Shown: positions 1,709 through 34,300 of the stretch, piece by piece | How positions within the stretch are numbered: the stretch's first letter is position 1 | Layout: each line of letters begins with the position of its first letter | Assembly: GCA_000004985.1 (NCBI GenBank) | Contig: GG738845.1 | From: Naegleria gruberi | Taxonomy: Eukaryota | DNA: 64,000 nucleotides | Reading direction: 5' to 3' (one strand) | Made by a program: the position numbers and the translations under genes | Notes under the pieces: model-generated | What the model was told of the DNA's origin: nothing | The model's input: only the letters and a program-made list of their open reading frames with translations | The model's database searches: none

Positions 1709-3884
1709 TTAGTTACTAAGGGGTCTTATCAAATTGAGCAATGTTTTCACAGAATTAATTGTGAGTATGTTACAATCCTGTACTCGTGTTAGAAGACTGT
1801 TATCTTGAAACCTCTCTTGCATGGCTAGAATTAAATTGTAGTGAGTTTGGTATTTTTCAACTGTTGCCAAGTTTACACTCTCACTTTCATTTACTTGCAT
1901 TGGTTGAGTATTCGAGATGTAACCACATTTTTCTTTTTGATATTTCAAAAAATCCCATGCATTCTCTTGATTAAAGTTTTTGCTCTTTACATATTCATCA
2001 ACTATTGATAAAGTAGCCACCTCAACGTCACTAATAATCTTTGGTCTAGATTCTGTCAAAGTATTCTGAATTCTAAATAAACCAAAGTCTCTCTTTACAG
2101 ATGGATGGAAATTCCATTTTGTACCAGAAATTGCAACCATCAAACAAACATGGGCCATCCCCTCATAAGCATGTTTTTCCATGTTTTGACTTTTTTCTGA
2201 CTCTTTTTCTTCTTCGAACTTGAAAATTAAATTAATTCCAATTTTTGAAAGATTTGATAATAATTTTGAAGGATTAACCCATGTTTTTGTTATTTCTGCC
2301 AAAGAATCACTAAATGGAGAAAGGAGCTTACATTTATCCTTATTGATAAGGATAGTAATTTCCTCTATTGACTTAAACCCACTGTCTTGGTAATAATGTC
2401 TTGGACTAATTTTCAAAACAACAGCATCTCTCCCAAGAGAAGGAATAGGGAACAGTGTCCAATTTTCGAATGGCTTATCAAGATGTTTGTTCTTAATTGT
2501 TGTTAGAAATACATAATTTTTAAAACTTACATATACAACAGCTAGAGGACAGGTCAAATGGCTTGTTAAAAACCCTATTGTCTTTGACTCCAAGTCATAA
2601 AAAGTGTTTGCAATACCATCTGTTGACCAAATCTTTTCCTTTTCGTTCCACCATGCAATTGTTGGTTTATCTGACCTGAGCATGATGTTAGGAAGTGGAA
2701 TAACAACCTTGGCTGGTGGTCCCTCCACTTCTTGGTTTTCATTGTTGGTAATGGAATAAGCCTTTCGTTTGACATGGGTAGATAACTCTGTTATTTGTCT
2801 TATTTTCCATTCTTCGCAAGTGTTCACAATTGGTGGGATATGCACTATATCGATGGAAAAAACTCCTCCAATTACAATAAAGTTTTGAGGATGTGAAGAA
2901 GTAGAAGAATAAATGTCTTCCTTCAAGTACATTGCTCTAATTGCTATTTCTTGATATCCCATTCCTTTAATAGCCAATTCTACAATAACATTTAATTCGG
3001 GATATTCCACAAAACGAGTACTATTGGTAAAATGAATGTTATTGAGATATTAAAAAAATTACGTACAGATTTTTGGAAATATTGGTCCAAATGCCATACT
3101 TGATAAAAGGATGTACCTTTTGGTATTGGTCATTCTCAGAGGAAAGATACTTATCAAAATATTGCATAATATGAGCAGTAGCGTCATCCATTGTTTGAAC
3201 TATACAATTTGAAAGATAGTTCAAGTATTTTGTACAATGGGTTTCAAGATCTTTCTTGCTTTGTGCAATTGATTCGACTAATAAATATTCTATTTCATTC
3301 ATAACTTTACACCCTTCAACTACCATTGCAAAATCCTCGTTAATATTTCGTATTTCTTTTTTCAAAGCAAGCTCATTTAGATCACGCCATGAAGAAATAA
3401 AATTATTCATATCAACATCGTCATCAAGCTTTGGAAGATTTTCACAATTCACAAATTTGTTCCATTCGTCCTCTTCTTTAGCAACTATCATGAGAGTATG
3501 AAGCTTCTCTTTAAAGGAAGGGATAACTTCACTATCAAAAGATCCCTTTTCCTCATCCAATCTTTTTTTTTCCTCCTCTGCCTTCTTCCTTCTTTCCTCA
3601 TTAATTTTTCTCTCCTCTTCTTCCTTTCTTTTTCTTTCTTCTTCTTCCTCTTTCCTTATCCTTTCTTCCTCTTCTTTTCTTTGTTTTTCCTCTTCCTCCT
3701 TTTTCTTTTGTTCAAGTACTTTTTTTTGTTTAGCTGTTAGCTTTTCGCCTTTTTCTCCTTTTTCAGCCTTAGTTGATTTAGAGGATGATGGCTTGGACGG
3801 AGCCGATTGGTTTTTGGTTGGAGAGGCAGTTGTACTACTTTGTGTTTTTGCGCTTGTTGGTGGTTTAGGCGTGTTTCCTGGCAT
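1709..3884 (-). CDS. CASC1/IC97 (DNAI7)-like axonemal inner-arm dynein associated protein; 2 exons 3884..3067 and 3020..1709, about 709 aa
   Basis: ATG at 3884. N-terminal K/E-rich region then DEWNKFVNCENLPKLDDDVDMNNFISSWRD, collinear with the human CASC1 N-domain ([29 protein letters not shown]). A 46-nt intron (GTACGT...CAATAG, plus 3021-3066) joins the 281-aa ORF in phase 2 to the 433-aa ORF, which begins at GTG (not a real start). Total length matches human CASC1 (716 aa). Confidence 0.65.
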
Positions 3885-3900
3885 TTTTTTGATTTAACTT

Positions 3901-3914
3901 TTTGCCGCCCAAAA
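3901..3914 (-). promoter_or_regulatory. Palindromic-type GC box TTTGCCGCCCAAAA (reverse complement TTTTGGGCGGCAAA) 17-30 nt upstream of CASC1-like ATG (3884, minus strand)
   Basis: Variant of the E2F-like element; same 12-mer core as the 9511-9524 copy. Confidence 0.4.
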
Positions 3915-4011
3915 CTACAGCCCCTCCACTAAATTTTTGTAATTGTGTATTTATAATTCATTTGACATGTTTTGCATTGCTGTCTGACACCATCAACTAA
4001 TTACATTAAAT

Positions 4012-5985
4012 TTATTTTTGAGGTTTTCGATTGTCTTTTGTTTTTAGACCGGCCCTCTTTTTTGCTTGCTCGTTGAAAATATCCTCATACACAGGGATAG
4101 TATCCAAGGAATAGGATTCTGCTCTTACACTGATTTTGTTCGAGTAACTATTTCTATAAGATGAAACATCTTCGTCCTTTTCAACCTCAAACCCTTCATA
4201 AACATCGTTAAGGAATTCTTCCAACTCCTCGTTTGGTTCATCAAGAGTGTGTAATTTACGTTGCTGAACTTGGGCCAAAATATCCATTTCCACATCATTA
4301 CTCTCGGTTCTGGCAAGAAACATTGGTTCTTGTTGCTTCTTTTTCTTCAATCCTTTTACGATATTGCCACAATAAACTTCCTTGGCTTTGTATGTTAAGT
4401 GACTGCTAGTGTCTTCTTCTTCCAATTGTTGATTTGATGAGAAAGGATGAGACGGCTTTCCCCTGTCACTTGATGCTGTCATTGGTCTGCCCCCTACTGA
4501 GCTTGTTGTTGTTGGTCTTATCATAGATGAAGTTGTTGGTCTCATTTGAGATGTGGATGGTCTGAGACCAATTCTACTCTTTGACATGCTCCTAAATATG
4601 GAGGAAGAAGATGTGGAAGGTCTCCTAAAGAAGGAAGCAGATTGTGGTCTGCCTCCATCTAATCTTGGAGTTGATGTTGTTATATTTCGTATCATGTTAT
4701 TATCTGCAGGGTTATAAAGACGATTGCTAATTGTCAGAATTAAGGGGTTATCATTAAGGGTTTCATCCAAGGACTCCATTCTTGTAAATTTGATAGATTT
4801 TTTCAGCATTTCAAATTCATTTTCTAATTCCTCTAAAGAAGGGGTTTGCCCATCTTTTTTAATAGGACTAATACCTCTGTCGTCCATTTCATCCTCAATC
4901 AATGGTGAATCATCTAAATACTCCAATGTTTGGAGAGTACTCTTAACCATAGACCTATATCCAATCATTTTAACAACCAGTGGGTTACCTGATAAAGTTA
5001 AACTTGTTAGATGCTTGCAATCAGAAAGATAAATTAACTGTAACTCATCTTCAATATTATTTCCTTCCAAATCCAATACTTCCAATTCTTCCATTCCCGA
5101 TAGATCGGAAATGTCTTCAATGTCATTATAAGAAAGATATAATTCCTTCAATCGAGAGAATGTTGATATTCCATCCAATTCCCCAATGCCACATCTCGAT
5201 AACCATAAAATTCTTACAAACTTTAAACTTGTTCCAAGATCTCTTATGGAGGGAATTGTGCTTCCATTTAGTTTTAACTCTTCTAAATTGGGCAATTTGG
5301 AGCCAACATCACCAAGTGAATTTTTGGTTGTATTTACAATAATTTCGAGATGTTTTACATTGTTAAGGTTATCCTCGCCAGTTGCTGCCTTGAGCTTTGA
5401 CTCTGATAAGTACTCCTCCAGAGCTAGAAGATTAGGGTCAATTTCTTCAGAAGGTAACTCATTCAAATCAAAGGAAACAATAGATTTGACAAGACCAAGA
5501 GGAAGACTTGTACTAGGTATTGGTTTTAAATCATCGACTTCTGAGGTTCCTCTATACTCCACCCTCGCCTCTGTTTGTTTCCTTATGAACTCATCATCTT
5601 CATCGTCACCGTCGTTACTTAAAAGTGATGACACACTTTCTTCGGAAGGAGTTTCTATACTTTCATTGTCATCATACTTTTCATTGTCCTCTTTCTTTTT
5701 GATTTTTTTGCTATTCTTTGGGTTGCCCAAAACACTAACCATCTTTTTGTTTTCGATTGAGCCAGAACGTTTTGGCAAAATTGGATTTAGAGGCTCCACA
5801 ACTTTTTGTCTGACTGGTTTGCTTTGTAAGTCATCCTGAAGAGTTGTTCCCATATGTTTTAAAAGTCTATTTCTCGTAAAAGATGAAGCTGATTTTGTTT
5901 GTTCCACAGAAAAATCAGAATGAATAACTTTACTGCCTCCTTCAAACTCCTTCCGATAGGAAGACTCTAAAGATTTGTTCAACAT
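4012..5985 (-). CDS. Leucine-rich repeat protein, SDS22-type LRRs plus LRRcap (DNAAF1/LRRC56/LRRC6-like); disordered N- and S/T/R-rich C-terminal regions
   Basis: 657-aa ORF, ATG at 5985. Central LxxLxLxxNxIxxI repeats (LEELKLNGSTI...LKELYLSYNDIEDISDL...LEVLDLEGNNIED) followed by GNPLVVKMIGYRSMVKSTLQTLEYLDD, which resembles the LRRcap of DNAAF1 (GNPVIRQIPNYRRTV...LTYLDD). Confidence 0.6.
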   Translation of the reverse strand: MLNKSLESSYRKEFEGGSKVIHSDFSVEQTKSASSFTRNRLLKHMGTTLQDDLQSKPVRQKVVEPLNPILPKRSGSIENKKMVSVLGNPKNSKKIKKKEDNEKYDDNESIETPSEESVSSLLSNDGDDEDDEFIRKQTEARVEYRGTSEVDDLKPIPSTSLPLGLVKSIVSFDLNELPSEEIDPNLLALEEYLSESKLKAATGEDNLNNVKHLEIIVNTTKNSLGDVGSKLPNLEELKLNGSTIPSIRDLGTSLKFVRILWLSRCGIGELDGISTFSRLKELYLSYNDIEDISDLSGMEELEVLDLEGNNIEDELQLIYLSDCKHLTSLTLSGNPLVVKMIGYRSMVKSTLQTLEYLDDSPLIEDEMDDRGISPIKKDGQTPSLEELENEFEMLKKSIKFTRMESLDETLNDNPLILTISNRLYNPADNNMIRNITTSTPRLDGGRPQSASFFRRPSTSSSSIFRSMSKSRIGLRPSTSQMRPTTSSMIRPTTTSSVGGRPMTASSDRGKPSHPFSSNQQLEEEDTSSHLTYKAKEVYCGNIVKGLKKKKQQEPMFLARTESNDVEMDILAQVQQRKLHTLDEPNEELEEFLNDVYEGFEVEKDEDVSSYRNSYSNKISVRAESYSLDTIPVYEDIFNEQAKKRAGLKTKDNRKPQK

Positions 5986-25522: not shown

Positions 25523-26809
25523 TTATTTCTTTTTCTTTGGCTTTTTCTTTCCACTTGTGTCACTCTTCTTAACCAAATCTTTGACCAATTTCTTGGCACT
25601 CTTCTTTTCCTTCTTAGCTTTCAATTTTTCTTGTTTTTCCTTATTGAGTTCGAGCAATTCCTTATCATATTTCTTCTTTGGAGTTAATTCTAAGAGTTCA
25701 ATATCGTAAAACAGTGTAGCATTTGGAGGTACCTTGTCAATTACACCCTTTTCACCAAAACCCTTTTCAGGAGGTATTACTAATTCTCTTTTACCACATA
25801 CAGTCATTCCTTCAACACCAATATTGATACCCTTGATAACCTTTTTAGTTCCTAATCTGAAACTGAATGGATTTTTTCTTGTTGATCTATCGAATGTTTT
25901 TACCTTGTCTGGATCAAGTCTACCTTTGTAATAGAGTGTCACCTTGTCACCAATTTGTGCTTTTCTTCCATGACCAACAAAAACATTGGTAATTTCCACA
26001 CTCTTTCTTGTGAAAGTCTTTGGTTCAGTATGATCTTCAGCTAATCTTTCTTCTTCTTCCTTGTCAGCTTTGATTTCCTCTTGTTGCTTTTCGAATTTTT
26101 CCACTTTGGATTTTTCCCATGGTGCTAAATCTTCCTTATATTTGGTTTTCTTGAGCTTTTCAACAATTTCCTTGAAATAGTTTCTCTTTAGTCTAAAGTA
26201 TGCTTTTGCCTTGTCCTCAAAGGTTGCCTCAGGTGAAAACATAATGATTCCATGTAAATCAACACCTAAACATTTTTCCTTATTCAAGTATGGTCTTCCT
26301 TTCAATTCAAATGTAAGATTACTAATTTCTTCAGCAGAAAACATATGTTGCAATACAAATTCACTTCTTGTTGGATAAGAAAGTGTTGCCAAGACAAACT
26401 TTCTTCTTTTGTCATCATCTTGAATACACACCTGTAAGACACACCCTGGTTGTTTTTCTTTGTCCAACGATGCTTCTTCGTCTTCATGAGCCATGATTGA
26501 CTTTAATTTTTTCTTAGCCTCTTCCAATTCTTTAACTTTAGAAGGGAGAGCAATAGAATAATTATTGTCAATTTGTAAAGAACATGAAGAAATAGCCAAA
26601 GAGCAATTATTAACCTGTCCAAGAGAAAATGGTTCTTCGGTAGTGACTCTGATTCTCCATTGAAGTCTATCTTGGCTTTCTAGAAATTCTTTAATATCCT
26701 GAGATGGATGTTGCATAAAAGCTTCCTCCTTGATTTTGTTCTCCTGTTCGTATTTTGTCTTTTTTGGCTTCGGATCATTCGAAGAAGCGCTTGAAGCTGA
26801 TCGTTTCAT
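25523..26809 (-). CDS. Nucleolar FKBP-type peptidyl-prolyl isomerase (Fpr3/Fpr4/FKBP39-like): nucleoplasmin-like N-domain, acidic/basic linker, C-terminal FKBP domain
   Basis: C-terminal GDKVTLYYKGRL...FDRS...PFSFRLGTKKVIKGINIGVEGMTVCGKRELVIPPEKGFGEKG...PPNATLFYDIELLEL is a canonical FKBP fold signature. ATG at 26809. Its stop lies 4 nt from the Bcd1 stop (convergent). Confidence 0.8.
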   Translation of the reverse strand: MKRSASSASSNDPKPKKTKYEQENKIKEEAFMQHPSQDIKEFLESQDRLQWRIRVTTEEPFSLGQVNNCSLAISSCSLQIDNNYSIALPSKVKELEEAKKKLKSIMAHEDEEASLDKEKQPGCVLQVCIQDDDKRRKFVLATLSYPTRSEFVLQHMFSAEEISNLTFELKGRPYLNKEKCLGVDLHGIIMFSPEATFEDKAKAYFRLKRNYFKEIVEKLKKTKYKEDLAPWEKSKVEKFEKQQEEIKADKEEEERLAEDHTEPKTFTRKSVEITNVFVGHGRKAQIGDKVTLYYKGRLDPDKVKTFDRSTRKNPFSFRLGTKKVIKGINIGVEGMTVCGKRELVIPPEKGFGEKGVIDKVPPNATLFYDIELLELTPKKKYDKELLELNKEKQEKLKAKKEKKSAKKLVKDLVKKSDTSGKKKPKKKK

Positions 26810-27030: not shown

Positions 27031-30000
27031 ATGAATCTAACTAAGGAAACTAAAAAACTAGTTTGGAAACAACAAATAGAAGCTAGGGGAAGTACTTGGA
27101 AAGTAAAGTGTGTTTCACTTTCGGAAAATGACTTATTAGTACTTGGTTCTGACACTGATGAACAGAGCTCACATTTATTTATTTGTGATTTGAAAAGTTT
27201 GGAGTGGTCAACAGCCCCTCTCTTCGGGGATGGTCCTAGCAATTCTGATTTTCATTTCCCAATAATATCTGAGGAAAATGAAGGCTTGTTTGTTTTTTGG
27301 ATCATGAGAGAAAAGGGATTACCTGCACTTCTTGTTGCTGATTATGAAAATGAAGGACTGACTCTTTCCAAAGGAGAACAAGTATTGTTATTTGATAGTG
27401 ATACAATGGATGACGATATGATATTGTGCATGAACAGGAAGGATAGGGTAATAGTGGCACCAAAAACACTGTTTGCAGTAGAAGAAGAAAATTCATTTTT
27501 TGAATTTTTTGAAAGATCAGAAATAGTAATTAGTTTTTTAAACTTTGCAAATGGAATGCAATGGTCAAGGATTCTAGTTGACAATGACCAGGCACCAAGG
27601 GCTAGAAGAGATTTCACCTGTACCAAGATAGATCAAAAGATTTACTTTTTTGGAGGAATTTCAGATAGTGGAATCATTCACAATGATATGTACATATTAG
27701 ATTTGAGTAGGTACTTCTTTTTTAATCTTCATCAGACATTTATCATTCAAATAGTTGATTTGAAGTGGTCTAAATGTACCTTTAAATCTGAAGATGATAA
27801 GCCAACAGCTAGATATGGTCATTCTGCAACTGTTCTAGATAGCGAATATATTCTGATATTTGGAGGAAGTGGATATGAAACAAAATTTAATGACCTGTAT
27901 CTATTTAATATTTTTAGTAAGGAATGGAGTTTGTTGGAAATTGATGAATGCCCCTTAGCGAGAAGTCATCACTCTTTTGTGAGATTGAATGAATTTATTG
28001 TTTTATTTGGAGGAGAGGGTGAAGAATCAATACTGAATGACCTATTCATTTTGGATATTGAGGAGAGTAGATGGGAGAAAATAGAAAACGATTTTAATCC
28101 ATCCCCCAGATTTAAGCATTTTTGTGGTTTGTTTTCTTCACAGGACTCTCTTGTATTTTTTGGAGGAGAGAATGGTTCAGAAAATTTATTCGATATCTAC
28201 ACACTGCATGCAGAAGATGATAATGAAGTGGAATTGATTTATTCTTCACCTAAATTGGAAATAGAAGACGAGTTTCGTCTCGAAATAAGTTCTGAAGAAA
28301 ATGACTCAACACAAGTAGAAAACGATGTTAATTGGTCAACTAACCAACCAGAGGAATACGAATTGAATAGTTACGCATTTATTGAAGAATCTGCTGAAGA
28401 AGAAGACAGAATGGACGAAATTGTATTTGAGGAAAATTCATCAACAACATCCGTTGTGGAGCAACCACAACAGTATGATCAAATGACACAAACCTCTGTT
28501 GATAGAGAAGAAGAAATTTTTGACTTTTCACACGACTTTCAAACTCACAATGAAGGTAATGACCTGGTTATTGAATTTGATACTCATGAATTTGTCGTTG
28601 AGGACGAATGCTTTCTTGAACCCACTAGCTCTCAATTGACTGAGGAAAAGGATATGTTGGAAGTAATATTTAGAAGCATATCTCTTGGAAACCCTACTAT
28701 TTCACTATTTACATTGCTAAAAATATGTAGAAACTGCAGAATAACAGAAAATTGGCTGTGTTATGATTCAATCCTTGAAACCGTCTCAAATATCTTACAA
28801 AAGAGTAAGTTATTACAATATATAATTACTACCTGTTAAAATAGCTTTAAATGGAGAGGAACAAATTGATTGCTTGGAATTCAGGAAAATAACAGCAGAG
28901 CTCTCGCAAAAGAGAAGTAAGAAACTCCAAGACACAACATTCAGCCACATGCAACTAATTGAAACTCTGTTAAAGCCTTACTACAAAACAGTTAGTAATC
29001 CAGATGATATGTTAATAGAGATTTTGTCTCCAACAATTCTCAACTTATTCACTTCTAAAAAAGAGCAGCTTCAAGAGGTGAGTAACAAAGCTTATATATC
29101 AAACTTATTTAACATTCAAAGTTGTTTTCTGTGTATTCATGTCTTAATTCAAATTCTCATTTTCCAGATACAAAGGAAGTTATGAAATCAAATAGTACAA
29201 TATCTCTAGCAGAATTTCTTTCTTTTGCAGAAACATTTGACATTACTCCCCACAAAATATCAAGAGTCCCCCTTCAAAAAACAATATTCTATAATAGTCT
29301 ACCTCCTGAAGGAAGTGAATCATTCAAAGAGAGCAAATCAAAAGGTTTAAACTATCCTCAGTTTCTAGAGTCGTTATGCAGGTTAGCAATACATATTTAC
29401 TCTCAACATCCTTTCTCTAACCTAGTCAAGACGAGTAAAGATAAAGTAGATATCTTTTTTAAACATATGGGATTTAAGGACATCTCAAAGTTCAAAGAGT
29501 TTTTAAAAAAAGCTGGTATTGGTGGTATTTCATTTAGCCCTAGCAAGAAAATAGCAACCAAAATTGCAAAACCTTCCAATTTAACAAACAGTGGAGGATC
29601 CACAAAACAAAAACCTGACCAAATTATGGAAACCAAACAAATTATTACCGATGAAATAAGAAGACAATATGTCGAAATGATCCAAAACAAATATCTTCTC
29701 AAAGAAGAGCTAGAGAATGTTTTTATGTATTACTGCTCTTTCGGAAATAGGATGAATCTAGATTTAATGAGCTCCTCCAAGTTCAAAATGTTCATTAGAG
29801 ATACTAATATATATAACTATGGTTTCAAGCAAGAGGAAGCAGATTTAATTTTCGTAAAAATATTATCAAGTACAAAGAAGAAATCTAACTTATCCCAAAA
29901 GTTGACATTTCCTCAATTTGTAGACTGTGTAAAAGAGATTGCCTCAAAACTTCGTAAGGATATAACTCCCTCTAAAGCATTTGCACAATTTTTACTTATT

Positions 30001-30476
30001 GATGTTTTACCAAAGGTCCATAGGTTAGAGAATCAAAAATATTTAGGCAATGATGAAAAGTTAAACGTTTTACTTGACAAGTTTAGAAACAATCTGCAAA
30101 AGGTTTGTAAAATACCCATTAATTCATGTTAACCTGCAAACAGCTGTTTTTATTTTATTGCAACTTGGATACTGGAGTGACTCTAAAAGAAACCATGTCC
30201 AGTAATAATTTATTCAAACTTTGTTTGGATTTTGAGATAATTCCTCTTGTATCAAAAAAAGATATTTACAAAGTTTTCAGATCACACACAAATACCGAAT
30301 TAGTTTATCACAAGTTTGAAAATTGTTTAATAGAAATTGTACATTCAGCATATGATAAGCATCCTTATAACTCTAAATACCCTTCACAAGCTGAAAAACT
30401 TGGAGCTCTTTTTCAAAAAATGGAGCTTGGAGATTGGAATATGACAAGGAAACGTTTGGAAACACAACAAGAATAA
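27031..30476 (+). CDS. Kelch-repeat beta-propeller fused to three p25-alpha/TPPP domains (about 1107 aa); exons 27031..28804, 28845..29077, 29122..30102, 30144..30476
   Basis: Kelch repeats (RYGHSATVLDSEYILIFGG..., ARSHHSFVRLNEFIVLFGG...). Downstream blocks match the p25-alpha fold pattern (ISLAEFLSFAETFDI..., FKMFIRDTNIY...LTFPQFVDCVKEIASKL, NLFKLCLDFEIIPLVSKKDIYKVF...). Three short introns of 40, 44 and 41 nt (GTAAGT..ATAG, GTGAGT..AAAG, GTTTGT..ACAG) preserve reading phase between the four ORF segments. The join between the Kelch and p25 parts is inferred from splice-phase consistency only. Confidence 0.5.
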
Positions 30477-30898
30477 AACTGTCTTTTTTTTTATGTCTCT
30501 TATCGCTGTGAGAGCAACAACTATTAAAATCAATAATAAGGCAGTTCCTCCTTTTGTTGGAAGGGAAACGGAACAGTCAAAGGTTGAAAATGGAGGAAAT
30601 ATTGTCCCAAGTAGCATTCAGTTCCTGTTTTTCATGACTGCTTTTAGTGTTCCAACTCTGAGATGATTTTTTTAGATCTCTAAAGTTCAAGGTTTCGAAA
30701 TCACAACAAGAATAAATAATTGGCCAGAAATTGCCTTAGAGTAAAAAGTTTATAAATGCTACGTGCCATGTAAAAGAGAGACATAATAATTGTAACAAGA
30801 AATAGGCTGCCACCGCACGCTTTCGTGCTTCGCAAGGTTTTGAATAAAATACGTTTCATCAAGATTAAAAAAAATATATTTATTTACCTACATAAACA

Positions 30899-31149
30899 AT
30901 GCAAGTTAGGTCAAGAAAATCGGGAGGTGTTAAACAACAAAAACTTACTGTATCAGGTTCTGATCACGGCACGATCTTGAAGACTTACTTTGGTGATGAT
31001 GATGCTCCAGGTATTAAAGTGTAAGTGGTTTACATTCTATAAATGTTTAATAATCATTTAATAGTTCCCCAACAACCGTTCTTGTTGGTAGCTTGGTTTT
31101 TATCTTCTCTGTAATTGTTCTTCACTTCTGGGGTAGATTCTTTGGATAA
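30899..31149 (+). CDS. Sec61 beta subunit (Sbh1), 68 aa; exons 30899..31020 and 31065..31149
   Basis: A 44-nt intron (GTAAGT...TAATAG) joins ...KTYFGDDDAPGIKV to SPTTVLVGSLVFIFSVIVLHFWGRFFG. This matches the Sec61beta signature (Y.ED.PGLKV.P..VLV.SL.FI.SV..LH..GK) and C-terminal TM anchor. Confidence 0.7.
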
Positions 31150-31351
31150 ATCATCAACTGAATTTACATTGTACTACTTCCATCAATTTCCTTTCTCCCA
31201 TTAATCACTAATAAACAAACTACATTATCATTGATGTATAGGATGAAGTAATATTATTTTGTAAAATAATAGTATTATTCTCTATTAATCAAAATTTAAT
31301 TGTTATTAATTCACCACTGATTAAAAAAAGAGGTAATTTTAAATTTAAAAA

Positions 31352-34300
31352 ATGGACAAAGTGTTAGAGGCCTCAACTTTGGAGATCGCATTGGAGGGAT
31401 TCAGAGGTTGCTCGTTCGAGAAATTAGTAAAACTCTTACAAGAATATCACGAGTATGATATAAAAGAAGACGAAGATATGCAAATATGTTTGTGGAGTTA
31501 TTTACTTAGAAATAGTAAACTTTCTTTCTTTAAAATAGTTCCGAACAATGGCGACTCTTCAACAACCAACAATACTCCACCACCTAAGCAGAAATCAAAC
31601 AAAAAAGCCCCACAAAAGAATGACTATCAATACACAACCGAAGGTTTCCAAGAGTATGCAGAGACTAGAAACAATTTCGATTCTCGTTTCTCCTCTAAAC
31701 GGTTGTTGGTTGATAACCTTTCTGAATTGGGTACACTACCAACATCAGATATTTGTATTGTTGCACAATTCGAATATAGAAAATTTGCTTTAGGTTTAGA
31801 TATTAGATCCGATGTTGAAATAAGTGAAATACAGTATTGCATGTTGGAAGAAGTTGGCCGGTCAAGATATAGTGGAAGGTTCCAAAATGATTTGACAAAA
31901 TACTTATGTATTGATTCAAGGTCAACTTTATATCACTTAAAACGGTTATACGGATTAAATTTACTTTTGAAAAAGTCTTCATATGATCCACGTTCTAAAA
32001 CAACTTCAAATTTAATCCATTTATTCAGATTTACTGATACCAAGAAACAAAAAGAGTTTATCAAAAAAACTGACGATGAAGTTAATGCAGAAAAGATATT
32101 TGAAAGGTATTCTCAACTGAAAGAAAATATTGTCGATACTGTTGTTGGAATGCTAACAAAGGCAAAGGGAAATGTATTGATAGATTATGAAGTAAGAAAA
32201 AAACTTTTGGATTTTGTTAAAGACGACACACAACAAAAACACAAATGGGAAAGACTGAAACTTATCTTACAAGCAAGTGGAAAAGTTGAATATTTTAAGG
32301 CAATTTTTGAAAACAGACTTACCTATTGTGTTCGTCTTCTCAACCAAGATAACAATTTATCTTCCTCTAATCCTATTGCTACAAATAATGCAATAGAAGA
32401 TGGATTACTAAATCCTGGATTTGATATGGAAAGGCCTCAACTCTATCAAATGTATGACTATATAGAAAAGTTTGGTGGTAAAAGTGGATTAAACCACATG
32501 GACATTTATCAACATTTTGAAATGACATCCAAAGTGAGTGGCAACCTTTGCAACGATTTGAGGAAAGACTTTGGTGTAACTTCTGTAGCAGAAAAGGGAG
32601 AAAAACAGGCTAAATCAACAAGTTATAGATTTTTCGTTCCTTACATTAAAGAAGTAGAAAATGATAAAGCTAATGAAGTCTCTAACAATGAACAGGAATC
32701 TCCTCAAAAATCCAAGTCTAGGAAAAAAAAGAAATCTCAACCACCTAAACAATCAACAAATAATTCTCAAGAACAAGTACAACAAGAGGTCCAGTCTGTA
32801 TTGCCATCAATTAATTTGGAAGATTCTAGTGATTCTCTTTATGATAGTGATACAGGAAGTGATGACGAAAGTGATGAAAATAAGCCAGCCCTTACTCCAA
32901 GCCAATATTTGAGGACAGAAGGAAAGAGAAAAGAAGAAGGATCCAGAAAAGAGGTAATAACTAAAAATTTCTCAGAAAGATGCAAATTGGCTCTTTCCTT
33001 TTTGAAAGAAAAGAAGTGTATTGCCAGATTTCAGTTGAGAGAACATTTTAAACAAAATAATGTTAGTGTGGAAAGCAAAGCTATATCAAGATTGATTCAA
33101 TACTTGGAATCGAATAACCTTGCTAAAAAAATGACTATTGCTGTACCTAGTTTATTTGGAACAACCTCAAAAATGCACATATGTTTAATTGATTGTTCTT
33201 TGGATATGAAATCAAAGACTGTACAGGACTTTATTACAAGTTTATACTCTCATGAAGTACAAGTTAATTCAAAAGAAAAAGTTGATAGAACAATTTTAGA
33301 AAAAGTTGATAGTATCGATCACTTAGAGACTAAAAGGTCTCAAAAAAGATTTTCCTACTTGCCACTCTTTCATTCACTTCTTAATGGCTATATCAATGCA
33401 AAAATGTTGCGAGTTAGGGTATTCCATCAATATCTATGGAATAAGGTGAATGAGGGATCTGTTAATCCTGAGCGTATTTGCCTTTATGATATTTATAGTA
33501 ACATGTCTGTTTCTCTATTTTGTAAGCTTGTTGGTTGTATTGCAGAAATCAGACTTGGTTCAGATGATAAGGAGATTTTACAAACAGTAACAATTTCTAA
33601 TGCGCCAGAAAATATTAAAAAAGCTGTTGATGCATCGGTAGTGGGAAGAAGAGCAGTTGCTCTCTCAAGAGTTGAAACATTTATTGATATAATGGAGAAG
33701 TTGGGATTATTGGTTGTACAGGCTATACGTGATAAAGAGAGCAAATCAAAAGTTTTTTCATTATTGAAAACAGTAGAATTTCCTTTCCCACAACAATTCC
33801 CTGCAACAGAGTACAGACAAGTTACATTTAATTCAATTAATGATGTAGAAGAATATTGGGACGATTTGGAAATGTGTAGTGTAAATATGGAGACTATTAG
33901 ATGTGAGCCAATTGGTGATGATCAAGAAGATAGCCCACAAATTTTTTCAAAGATTCAAGATTTGGGAAAAAGACCTAGTTGGACTGAGTATAGACATTTT
34001 TCTTTGAGGCAACTTCGTATTTTAGAGGCTTCTTATAAGGAGAATCAAACACCAAATTTTGAGGAATGCGACAATATTTGCAAAAAATTGAGAATACCAA
34101 TGGAACAAGTTGTTCTCTATTTTTACAGATATAGAAACTCTATTCTTAGCAAGCGTATTTCAGATATTGGTACTATCCCAGAGGGTCAATCCAAGTCAAA
34201 TACTAAACGTAAAAAGGACGATGATTTTATAGTTGGTGATGACGAAATTGAGTATGAAAGCAATGATGAGAATGTAGAGGTTAGAGCAAAAAAAACAAAG

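What the first reader, a model, noticed from the sequence alone, without database searches (positions are those of the whole stretch)
27031..30476. Unusual gene architecture: Kelch beta-propeller fused to three p25-alpha (TPPP) domains
The Kelch-repeat ORF (27031-28839) can be spliced through a 40-nt GTAAGT..ATAG intron in correct phase into a small exon. Two further 44- and 41-nt introns then lead into ORFs that encode three tandem p25-alpha-like modules. p25-alpha is a cilium-associated tubulin-binding fold that normally occurs as a small stand-alone protein. A roughly 1100-aa Kelch + 3x p25-alpha protein would be a novel domain combination, possibly a microtubule/axoneme adaptor.
Basis: partly seen in the sequence, partly recalled or inferred. 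Interest (0 to 1): 0.55.

Follow-up and report, generated by a model that had tools for sequence, protein, structure and literature searches.

The report
Known Naegleria Kelch–p25alpha fusion gene
This is a real single gene of the amoeboflagellate Naegleria gruberi that joins a Kelch propeller to a row of tubulin-binding-type (p25-alpha/TPPP-like) modules. The protein and its domain combination were already in public databases and were described in 2012, so only a corrected 3' end and a fuller module count are new.

Summary
Window 27031-30476 (+) is one gene. The product is 1090 aa: a six-bladed Kelch propeller with an SH3-like insert, a 134-aa acidic linker, and four EF-hand-like helical modules. 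Three of these modules (B, C, D) are demonstrably p25-alpha/TPPP-like.

The window is Naegleria gruberi scaffold_1:384001-448000, and the gene is NAEGRDRAFT_61240 (XP_002683090). The public model already fuses Kelch to p25-alpha. Orosz 2012 (PLoS One) lists this very protein as "Kelch + 1 short p25alpha". The claimed novelty therefore fails.

What is new is minor. The module count is 3-4 rather than 1. The architecture is conserved across Discoba, including in transcriptome assemblies. An SH3-like insert is seen only in Naegleria and Willaertia.

The closest solved relatives are microtubule-bound ciliary central-pair proteins: Chlamydomonas FAP216 and Tetrahymena TLP1/TLP2. A role as a microtubule or axoneme scaffold is plausible but untested.

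The parts
27031..27706 (+). CDS exon 1 (start ATG 27031): Kelch blades 1-2, the SH3-like insert, and the start of blade 3
   Evidence: ORF list. JGI exon 411031-411706. Translation identical to P0026.
27707..27754 (+). Intron 1, 48 nt, in frame, GTAGGT..AATAG.
   Evidence: Removed in the JGI model. Its removal restores the Kelch motif DMYILDL|IDLKWS. A 45-nt in-frame intron sits at the same place in N. lovaniensis, L001 3614-3658.
27755..28804 (+). CDS exon 2: Kelch blades 3-6, the acidic linker, and the first half of module A
28805..28844 (+).
   Evidence: Same as the JGI model. It lies inside folded module A. N. lovaniensis has no intron here, and its ORF is continuous from Kelch into the helical modules.
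28845..29077 (+). CDS exon 3: second half of module A and the first helix of module B
29078..29121 (+).
   Evidence: N. lovaniensis has a 42-nt intron at the same place, LLQK|IFDVF.
29122..30102 (+). CDS exon 4: module B, a basic/Ser-rich linker, module C, and the first helix of module D
   Evidence: P0020 is 99% identical.
30103..30143 (+). The public model uses the same donor but an acceptor at 30540/30541.
   Evidence: The position NLQK|LF is conserved in N. lovaniensis, where it is NLQR|LF. It sits at the position in module D homologous to intron 3 in module B.
30144..30476 (+). CDS exon 5 (stop TAA 30474-30476): most of module D. This exon is missing from the public model.
   Evidence: Aligns to all orthologues, with invariant columns up to E1086. 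53 family hits at E<1e-5. Pfam p25-alpha E=0.028 on module D alone.
27031..28230 (+). Six-bladed Kelch beta-propeller (aa 1-384, interrupted by intron 1)
   Evidence: Pfam PF24681 E=1.9e-51. AF2 model pLDDT 85.7, pTM 0.81, all-beta. Foldseek LZTR1 Kelch E=1.9e-18, TMt 0.80, plus KLHDC2/3.
27307..27510 (+). SH3-like insert within the propeller (aa ~93-160)
   Evidence: Present only in N. gruberi, N. lovaniensis and Willaertia magna among orthologues. Pfam SH3_2 E=0.033, below threshold. A profile of the insert hits the NCK2 SH3 domain at E=0.0035, and many other SH3 domains in register. The AF2 model shows short beta strands at 97-150.
28231..28632 (+). Acidic, probably disordered linker (aa 385-518; 31% D+E, 3% K+R)
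   Evidence: Composition. pLDDT <50 for aa 386-420. Poorly conserved and variable in length among orthologues.
28633..28996 (+). Module A (aa 519-626): EF-hand-pair-like helical module with no significant sequence similarity to p25-alpha
   Evidence: hhalign against B, C and D gives probability ~1%, and Pfam gives no hit. In the AF2 model of the N. fowleri orthologue it has the same helix-strand-helix x2 pattern as B-D, with pLDDT ~90. It is conserved in Willaertia and other Discoba.
28997..29526 (+). Module B (aa 627-788): p25-alpha-like (D-type)
   Evidence: hhalign B-D probability 98.5%, E=2.4e-15. No direct Pfam hit. Aligns to FAP216 residues 259-338.
29653..30036 (+). Module C (aa 831-958): bona fide p25-alpha domain (short type)
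   Evidence: Pfam PF05517 E=2.4e-10 alone, and 47.5 bits in the whole protein. FAP216 E=1.1e-7.
30049..30473 (+). Module D (aa 963-1090): p25-alpha-like
   Evidence: Pfam PF05517 E=0.028. hhalign C-D 91%, B-D 98.5%.
30541..30666 (+). Last exon of the public JGI model. Judged not to belong to the gene.
   Evidence: JGI exon 414541-414666. Its peptide has no significant match in 170 family proteins. It would need a 438-nt intron, whereas annotated introns nearby are 39-64 nt (one of 179 nt in jgi_61244).

Best explanation
Window 27031-30476 (+) is one five-exon protein-coding gene of Naegleria gruberi, NAEGRDRAFT_61240.

Its 1090-aa product has three parts:
- An N-terminal six-bladed Kelch beta-propeller. 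It carries an SH3-like insert seen only in Naegleria and Willaertia.
- A ~134-aa acidic flexible linker.
- A C-terminal array of four EF-hand-pair-like helical modules (A-D). B, C and D are homologous to the globular core of p25-alpha/TPPP.

The gene structure, domains and conservation are shown. The function is inferred. The TPPP-like cores probably dock on the microtubule lattice, as the TPPP-like domains of Tetrahymena TLP1/TLP2 are seen to do; the homologous protein FAP216 is a central-pair subunit. The Kelch/SH3 end, held on a flexible tether, would recruit another protein. The protein would then be a microtubule-associated scaffold of the flagellar apparatus, or possibly of the spindle.

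The fusion itself is already public (RefSeq, Orosz 2012). The public model is wrong only in its last exon.

Confidence in the gene model and architecture is about 0.9. Confidence in the microtubule-scaffold function is about 0.45.
For: Identity:
- The neighbouring 1733-aa ORF equals XP_002683091 exactly, and the cluster of the exon-4 ORF holds XP_002683090.
- The JGI GFF coordinates match.

One gene, not two:
- The public model joins the same exons.
- In N. lovaniensis a single uninterrupted ORF (L001 2935-4959) runs from Kelch through module A into module B.
- The window protein aligns collinearly with the N. lovaniensis and N. fowleri proteins.
- Intron 2 lies inside folded module A.
- Kelch and p25-alpha occur in single ORFs of transcriptome assemblies from Stygiella, Entosiphon, Sulcionema, Namystynia, a protein labelled Hpha, and Apiculatamorpha. 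They also occur together in the Willaertia magna genome model.

3' end:
- Exon 30144-30476 is conserved.
- The intron position is conserved.

Domains:
- Pfam Kelch and p25-alpha hits.
- hhalign between modules.
- AF2 models with pLDDT 86.1 and 85.7.
- Foldseek matches at probability 1.00 to CGI-38/TPPP3 and to central-pair chains.
- Profile against PDB sequences: FAP216 E=2.2e-28, TPPP 5e-12.

Mechanistic precedent:
- TPPP-like domains of TLP1/TLP2 wedge between protofilaments, and TLP2 combines them with an ARM repeat domain.
- FAP216 is a C1c central-pair subunit needed for motility.
Against: - No N. gruberi transcript data could be consulted, so the splice junctions rest on comparative evidence and on an ab initio public model (manualCuration=no).
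- Module A has no significant sequence similarity to p25-alpha.
- The modules lack the GXGXGXXGR motif of long or partial p25-alpha domains, and they lack canonical EF-hand Ca2+ loops. Tubulin binding therefore cannot simply be transferred from TPPP.
- The gene carries no curated description in the GFF, whereas a neighbouring gene is curated as FM140. No expression or localisation data were found.
- The Kelch propeller is closest to those of ubiquitin-ligase substrate receptors, which allows a different function.
Confidence: 0.8

Rival explanations
1. There are two independent genes. A Kelch gene ends at the in-frame stop at 28837-28839, and a separate p25-alpha gene starts downstream. The apparent splicing would be coincidental.
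For: The Kelch ORF does run on to a stop at 28839 if it is left unspliced. No N. gruberi transcript evidence was available.
Against: N. lovaniensis has no intron at this site and encodes Kelch, module A and part of module B in one ORF. The stop would cut module A in half. Trinity transcripts from several Discoba carry both domains in one ORF. Exon 3 has no plausible start, and it continues the alignment in frame.
Confidence: 0.02
2. The public JGI 3' end is right, or is a major isoform. Exon 4 would splice to 30541-30666 over a 438-nt intron, giving a 1021-aa protein without module D.
For: It is the deposited model. It uses the same donor and has GT..AG ends.
Against: The skipped 333 nt are an intact ORF in phase. 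They are conserved in every orthologue up to the last residues, with 53 hits at E<1e-5 against none for the JGI exon. N. lovaniensis has a short intron at the same position followed by the homologous exon. Most annotated introns nearby are 39-64 nt. The model is ab initio and was not curated.
Confidence: 0.06
3. The gene model is the same but the role is different. The Kelch propeller acts as a substrate receptor or adaptor in ubiquitin or other signalling. The helical modules would be generic EF-hand-like protein-binding domains, not microtubule binders.
Against: No BTB, BACK, F-box or SOCS/BC-box family is detected in the window protein. The Willaertia BTB may come from a merged neighbouring gene. 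The closest relatives of the modules by sequence and by fold are proteins seen in or on ciliary microtubule structures. According to a paper abstract returned by the literature search, the p25-alpha domain occurs only in organisms with cilia (PMC10455874).
Confidence: 0.2

Closest known systems
NAEGRDRAFT_61240 / XP_002683090 / D2UXU0_NAEGR, as listed by Orosz 2012 (PLoS One 7:e49276, Table 3: multidomain TPPP-like protein, 1 short p25alpha + Kelch)
   Same: It is this very locus. Exons 1-4 and three of the four introns are identical.
   Different: The public model has a wrong terminal exon and lacks module D. The paper counts one p25alpha domain, whereas three are detectable here, plus a fourth structurally similar module.
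Tetrahymena TLP2 and TLP1 (TPPP-like proteins of the ciliary-tip central pair, PDB 9nw3)
   Different: TLP2 has ARM repeats, not Kelch. It has two TPPP-like domains joined by a long lattice-binding helix, not four contiguous modules. Sequence identity is only 12-19%. Orthology was not tested.
Chlamydomonas FAP216 (C1c subunit of the central apparatus, PDB 7n6g/7sqc)
   Same: It is the closest solved relative by sequence. The profile gives E=2.2e-28 over modules C+D and the single sequence gives E=1.1e-7. The order is the same: a C-type module followed by a B/D-type module.
   Different: Only the region matching modules C+D aligns. Whether FAP216 has a Kelch domain was not checked. Its function is known only from a motility-defective mutant. 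Orthology was not tested.
TPPP/p25, TPPP3/CGI-38 (PDB 9j4d, 2jrf, 1wlm)
   Same: The same globular fold and Pfam family for module C.
   Different: TPPPs are small single-domain proteins with disordered tails and the GXGXGXXGR motif. That motif is absent here.
Kelch propellers of LZTR1 / KLHDC2 / KLHDC3
   Same: The same six-bladed Kelch fold: TM 0.8, E down to 1.9e-18.
   Different: 17-18% identity. No BTB or BC-box partner domain is detected. The SH3-like insert is seen only in Naegleria and Willaertia.

Membership tests
TPPP-like superfamily (p25-alpha domain, PF05517) | Significant match to the p25-alpha profile | tested here: met
   47.5 bits against the gathering score of 22.6 for the whole protein. 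Module C alone gives E=2.4e-10, module D E=0.028, and modules A and B give none.
TPPP-like superfamily (p25-alpha domain, PF05517) | Globular fold of TPPP3/CGI-38 | tested here: met
Long-type TPPP / partial p25-alpha domain | C-terminal Rossmann-like GXGXGXXGR motif (Orosz 2012) | tested here: not met
   A regex search of the 1090-aa product finds no such motif. The domains are of the short or truncated type, as Orosz classified them.
TPPP-like superfamily | Binding to tubulin or microtubules | not testable with these tools
   Only inferred, from TLP1/TLP2 and TTLL11 structures on microtubules.
Kelch-repeat beta-propeller | Repeated Kelch motifs forming a closed propeller | tested here: met
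   PF24681 E=1.9e-51 and Kelch_1-6 hits. AF2 pTM 0.81, all-beta. LZTR1 TMt 0.80. Six blades were counted from the GG/W motifs in the alignment.
BTB-Kelch / KLHDC-type cullin-RING substrate receptors | BTB/BACK domain or C-terminal BC/Cul box next to the propeller | tested here: not met
   No BTB, BACK, F-box or SOCS family at E<=1 in the window protein.
SH3 domain | Significant profile match and a five-stranded barrel | tested here: inconclusive
   Pfam SH3_2 E=0.033 and SH3_10 E=0.063, both below cut-off. A three-sequence profile hits NCK2 SH3 at E=0.0035 and about 15 other SH3 domains in register. The AF2 model shows short strands in aa 97-150. The insert could not be fold-searched on its own.
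Ca2+-binding EF-hand proteins | Canonical 12-residue DxDxDG-type loops | tested here: not met
   No match to D-x-[DNS]-x-[DNSG]-x6-[DE] anywhere in the protein. Only the fold is EF-hand-like.
FAP216 orthologue (central apparatus C1c) | Reciprocal-best relationship and shared full-length architecture | not tested
   Homology of the C+D tandem is shown. Orthology, and other N. gruberi paralogues such as XP_002682916, were not examined.

The most novel reading that the evidence does not exclude
The Kelch + four TPPP-like-module protein may define an uncharacterised family of lateral microtubule-lattice binders that is at least Discoba-wide. It would be analogous to Tetrahymena TLP2. Several wedge-type TPPP-like cores would span neighbouring protofilaments of flagellar, basal-body or spindle microtubules. 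The tethered Kelch (plus SH3 in Naegleria/Willaertia) would recruit a partner. In Naegleria, which builds microtubules only for mitosis and for the flagellate stage, this would be directly testable.
Probability: 0.35. Interest if true: 0.45.

Novelty: already known. Interest (0 to 1): 0.2.

Why it matters
It matters little as a discovery, because the domain combination has been public since 2010 and 2012.

The practical value is an annotation fix. XP_002683090 should end with exon 30144-30476, not 30541-30666, which gives 1090 aa.

The analysis also shows that the "one p25alpha domain" counted in the literature is really a conserved four-module array. That array is shared by heteroloboseans, a jakobid and euglenozoans. 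It is related to proteins now seen on central-pair microtubules (FAP216, TLP1/2).

That makes the protein a reasonable, cheap candidate for anyone studying how Naegleria builds its flagellar or mitotic microtubule arrays.

Tried and rejected
1. A homologue search with the full 1090-aa product was swamped by generic Kelch proteins. Searching with the C-terminal part alone gave the orthologues.
2. I looked for expression or localisation data. The gene id is absent from the main text and tables of Velle et al. 2024, and appears only in their GFF. Fritz-Laylin & Cande 2010 (PMC2987438) is not held.
I used the N. fowleri orthologue for A-D and the public model's first 420 aa (identical to the window product) for the N-terminus.
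4. The afdb50 fold library was unavailable.
5. I searched for further p25-alpha modules downstream of 30476, because other Discoba have a second C/D-like pair. None were found in 30300-31400 or elsewhere in the window.
6. I considered module A as a fourth p25-alpha domain. This was rejected at sequence level (hhalign ~1%) and kept only as structurally similar.
7. I considered a BTB-Kelch ubiquitin adaptor. No BTB is present in the window protein.
8. The third protein-database search was not spent, because a named kinetoplastid orthologue would not have changed the verdict.
Full report
**Where the window comes from.** The sequence is AT-rich (about 32-33% GC) and has long standard-code ORFs and very short introns. 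The 1733-aa ORF next to the finding is identical to XP_002683091 (NAEGRDRAFT_61241) of Naegleria gruberi. The cluster holding the exon-4 ORF also contains XP_002683090 = EFC50346 = D2UXU0_NAEGR = NAEGRDRAFT_61240, a 1021-aa "predicted protein". A copy of the JGI GFF in a supplement places gene jgi_61240 at scaffold_1:411031-414666 (+). The window is therefore scaffold_1:384001-448000.

**Checking the observation.** The 602-aa ORF 27031-28839 exists. The three proposed introns have the stated coordinates, lengths and ends, and joining the exons gives an open frame to the TAA at 30474-30476:
- 28805-28844, 40 nt
- 29078-29121, 44 nt
- 30103-30143, 41 nt

The conceptual protein hits Kelch families (PF24681 E=1.9e-51, and Kelch_1 to Kelch_6). 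It also hits p25-alpha, PF05517, at 47.5 bits against a cut-off of 22.6.

Removing it restores a normal Kelch motif, and it is removed in the public model. The product is therefore 1090 aa.

**Comparison with the public model.** The JGI exons, in window coordinates, are 27031-27706, 27755-28804, 28845-29077, 29122-30102 and 30541-30666. The model is an ab initio fgenesh prediction flagged manualCuration=no.

The only difference is the last splice. JGI uses the same donor (30102/30103) but jumps 438 nt to 30541.

- The 110 residues of exon 30144-30476 align with the C-termini of the N. fowleri, N. lovaniensis and other relatives, with invariant columns up to residue 1086.
- This exon gives 53 hits at E<1e-5 among the collected family proteins. 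The JGI terminal peptide gives none.
- N. lovaniensis has a short intron at exactly the same codon boundary (NLQR|LF), followed by the homologous exon.
- Most annotated introns nearby are 39-64 nt.

**One gene or two.** The strongest evidence does not depend on splicing. In the N. lovaniensis locus (L001) one uninterrupted 674-aa ORF (2935-4959) runs from the Kelch propeller through the linker and module A into module B. There is no intron at the position of the N. gruberi 40-nt intron.

Other evidence agrees:
- In N. gruberi that intron falls after residue 575, in the middle of a folded module.
- The N. lovaniensis protein (945 aa) and the N. fowleri protein (742 aa, truncated at the N-terminus) carry Kelch and p25-alpha Pfam hits and align collinearly with the window protein.
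- A profile search of 1.84 billion representative proteins found 959 relatives of the C-terminal region.
- Among the best 150, eleven besides the two Naegleria proteins also match the window's Kelch part. Pfam confirms Kelch in all eleven, and p25-alpha above its gathering score in seven of them.
- These come from Willaertia magna (KAL9651198.1) and from transcriptome assemblies of the jakobid Stygiella incarcerata, the euglenid Entosiphon sulcatum, the diplonemids Sulcionema specki and Namystynia karyoxenos, a protein labelled 'Hpha' (probably Hemistasia; this is my reading of the prefix), and the prokinetoplastid Apiculatamorpha spiralis.

The architecture therefore occurs in Heterolobosea, Jakobida and Euglenozoa, and it is seen at transcript level in relatives.

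**Anatomy of the N-terminal part.** Residues 1-384 form a six-bladed Kelch propeller. The AF2 model has pLDDT 85.7 and pTM 0.81. Foldseek matches the LZTR1 Kelch domain at E=1.9e-18 and TMt 0.80, and then KLHDC2/3/10.

Between blades 2 and 3 there is a ~70-residue insert (about aa 93-160). It is present only in N. gruberi, N. lovaniensis and W. magna, and is absent from the other orthologues. It looks like an SH3 domain:
- Pfam SH3_2 gives E=0.033, below threshold.
- A three-sequence profile hits the NCK2 SH3 domain at E=0.0035, and many other SH3 domains in the same register.
- The model shows a run of short strands there.

I rate this as probable, not proven.

Residues 385-518 are an acidic linker (31% D+E). 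The modelled part has low confidence, and the linker is poorly conserved.

**Anatomy of the C-terminal part.** The C-terminal 572 residues form four modules:

| Module | Residues |
|---|---|
| A | 519-626 |
| B | 627-788 |
| C | 831-958 |
| D | 963-1090 |

Pfam recognises C (E=2.4e-10) and weakly D (E=0.028). It does not recognise A or B.

Profile-profile comparison of the modules gave:

| Pair | Probability | E-value |
|---|---|---|
| B-D | 98.5% | 2.4e-15 |
| C-D | 91% | - |
| B-C | 36% | - |
| A vs any | ~1% | - |

Module A is a fourth module of the same helix-strand-helix x2 pattern in the AF2 model. That model was made on the N. fowleri orthologue and has pLDDT 86.1. Module A has no detectable sequence relationship to the others.

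Introns 3 and 4 lie at homologous positions of modules B and D (LQE|LF and LQK|LF, both phase 0), which fits an internal duplication. The protein has no GXGXGXXGR motif and no canonical Ca2+-binding loops. Other Discoba carry a further C/D-like pair after D. The Naegleria proteins end after D, and nothing similar lies downstream in the window.

**What it resembles and how it may work.** By sequence profile, the closest solved proteins are:

| Protein | E-value |
|---|---|
| Chlamydomonas FAP216 (over modules C+D) | 2.2e-28 |
| A 2520-aa flagellar-associated protein in the 96-nm repeat structure 8glv | 2.5e-13 |
| TPPP | 5e-12 |
| CGI-38/TPPP3 | ~1e-9 |
| TTLL11 | 1e-4 |

The window protein alone hits FAP216 at E=1.1e-7.

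According to the TLP paper, the globular TPPP-like domains of TLP1/TLP2 wedge between protofilaments at the intradimer interface. TLP2 combines them with an N-terminal ARM repeat domain (bioRxiv 10.1101/2024.12.02.626492). FAP216 is a C1c central-apparatus subunit whose loss severely impairs swimming (bioRxiv 10.1101/773416).

By analogy, I propose that modules B-D, and perhaps A, dock on microtubule lattice or on an axonemal complex. The Kelch/SH3 platform on its acidic tether would bind a partner. This step is inference. No expression, localisation or binding data for this gene were found. The propeller's resemblance to ubiquitin-ligase substrate receptors leaves a non-microtubule role open, although no BTB or BC-box partner domain is present.

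**Novelty.** The exact protein XP_002683090 is listed in Table 3 of Orosz 2012 (PMC3498115). The entry reads: multidomain TPPP-like protein from Naegleria gruberi, one short p25alpha domain, other domain Kelch. The protein is also mentioned in the text. No other held paper names the gene.

The "novel domain combination" is therefore already known. The new elements are:
- the corrected last exon;
- three to four modules instead of one;
- conservation of the architecture across Discoba;
- the SH3-like insert;
- the link to FAP216 and TLP1/2.

These are refinements, not a discovery, so interest is low.

Noticed in passing
window 30899-31149 (+): A small two-exon gene for Sec61 beta. Exon 1 is 30899-31020, the 44-nt GTAAGT..AATAG intron is 31021-31064, and exon 2 is 31065-31149. 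Pfam PF03911 gives E=1.2e-14. The JGI GFF copy shows no gene model between 414666 and 415352, so it appears to be unannotated.
   Followed up: partly
window 25523-26809 (-): An intact 428-aa ORF with a C-terminal FKBP_C domain (E=3.7e-25) and a charged N-terminal/central part. The JGI GFF has only a 300-nt fragment model here (jgi_5012, 409676-409975).
   Followed up: partly
L001 3614-3658 and 4714-4950 (N. lovaniensis PYSW02000007.1, gene C9374_013977): The N. lovaniensis orthologue model leaves a 45-nt in-frame intron unspliced in the Kelch domain. It also skips the first half of module B with a 222-nt 'intron'. The homologous coding sequence is present but breaks frame near 4935-4950, from either an assembly indel or a real frameshift.
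   Followed up: partly
window 29078-29121 and 30103-30143: These two introns sit at homologous, phase-0 positions of modules B and D (LQE|LF and LQK|LF). Both are also present in N. lovaniensis. This suggests the intron predates the internal duplication of the module.
   Followed up: partly
window 27307-27510 (aa ~93-160): An SH3-like domain is inserted into the Kelch propeller. It is shared only with N. lovaniensis and Willaertia magna and is absent from the jakobid, euglenozoan and other orthologues.
   Followed up: partly
P0028 (Willaertia magna KAL9651198.1, 2024 aa): The Willaertia model carries a BTB_2 domain at residues 29-126, about 700 residues upstream of the Kelch part. It may be a merged neighbouring gene or a real BTB-Kelch-TPPP-like protein. 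This was not examined.
   Followed up: no
P0020-P0024: All close relatives carry a precomputed hit to Pfam PF27858 together with PF05517. That family is not in the local Pfam copy, so I could not see what it covers. It may cover the modules that PF05517 misses.
   Followed up: no
window 4012-5853 (-): Gene jgi_61232 is curated as 'FM140' in the GFF description. I read this as a flagellar-motility gene set. It encodes a leucine-rich-repeat protein. The longest ORF (4012-5985) extends 132 nt upstream of the annotated start.
   Followed up: no
P0023, P0024, P0027-P0029, P0035: Most non-Naegleria relatives have an extra C/D-like module pair after module D. The three Naegleria proteins end just after D, which suggests loss of that pair in the genus.
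   Followed up: partly
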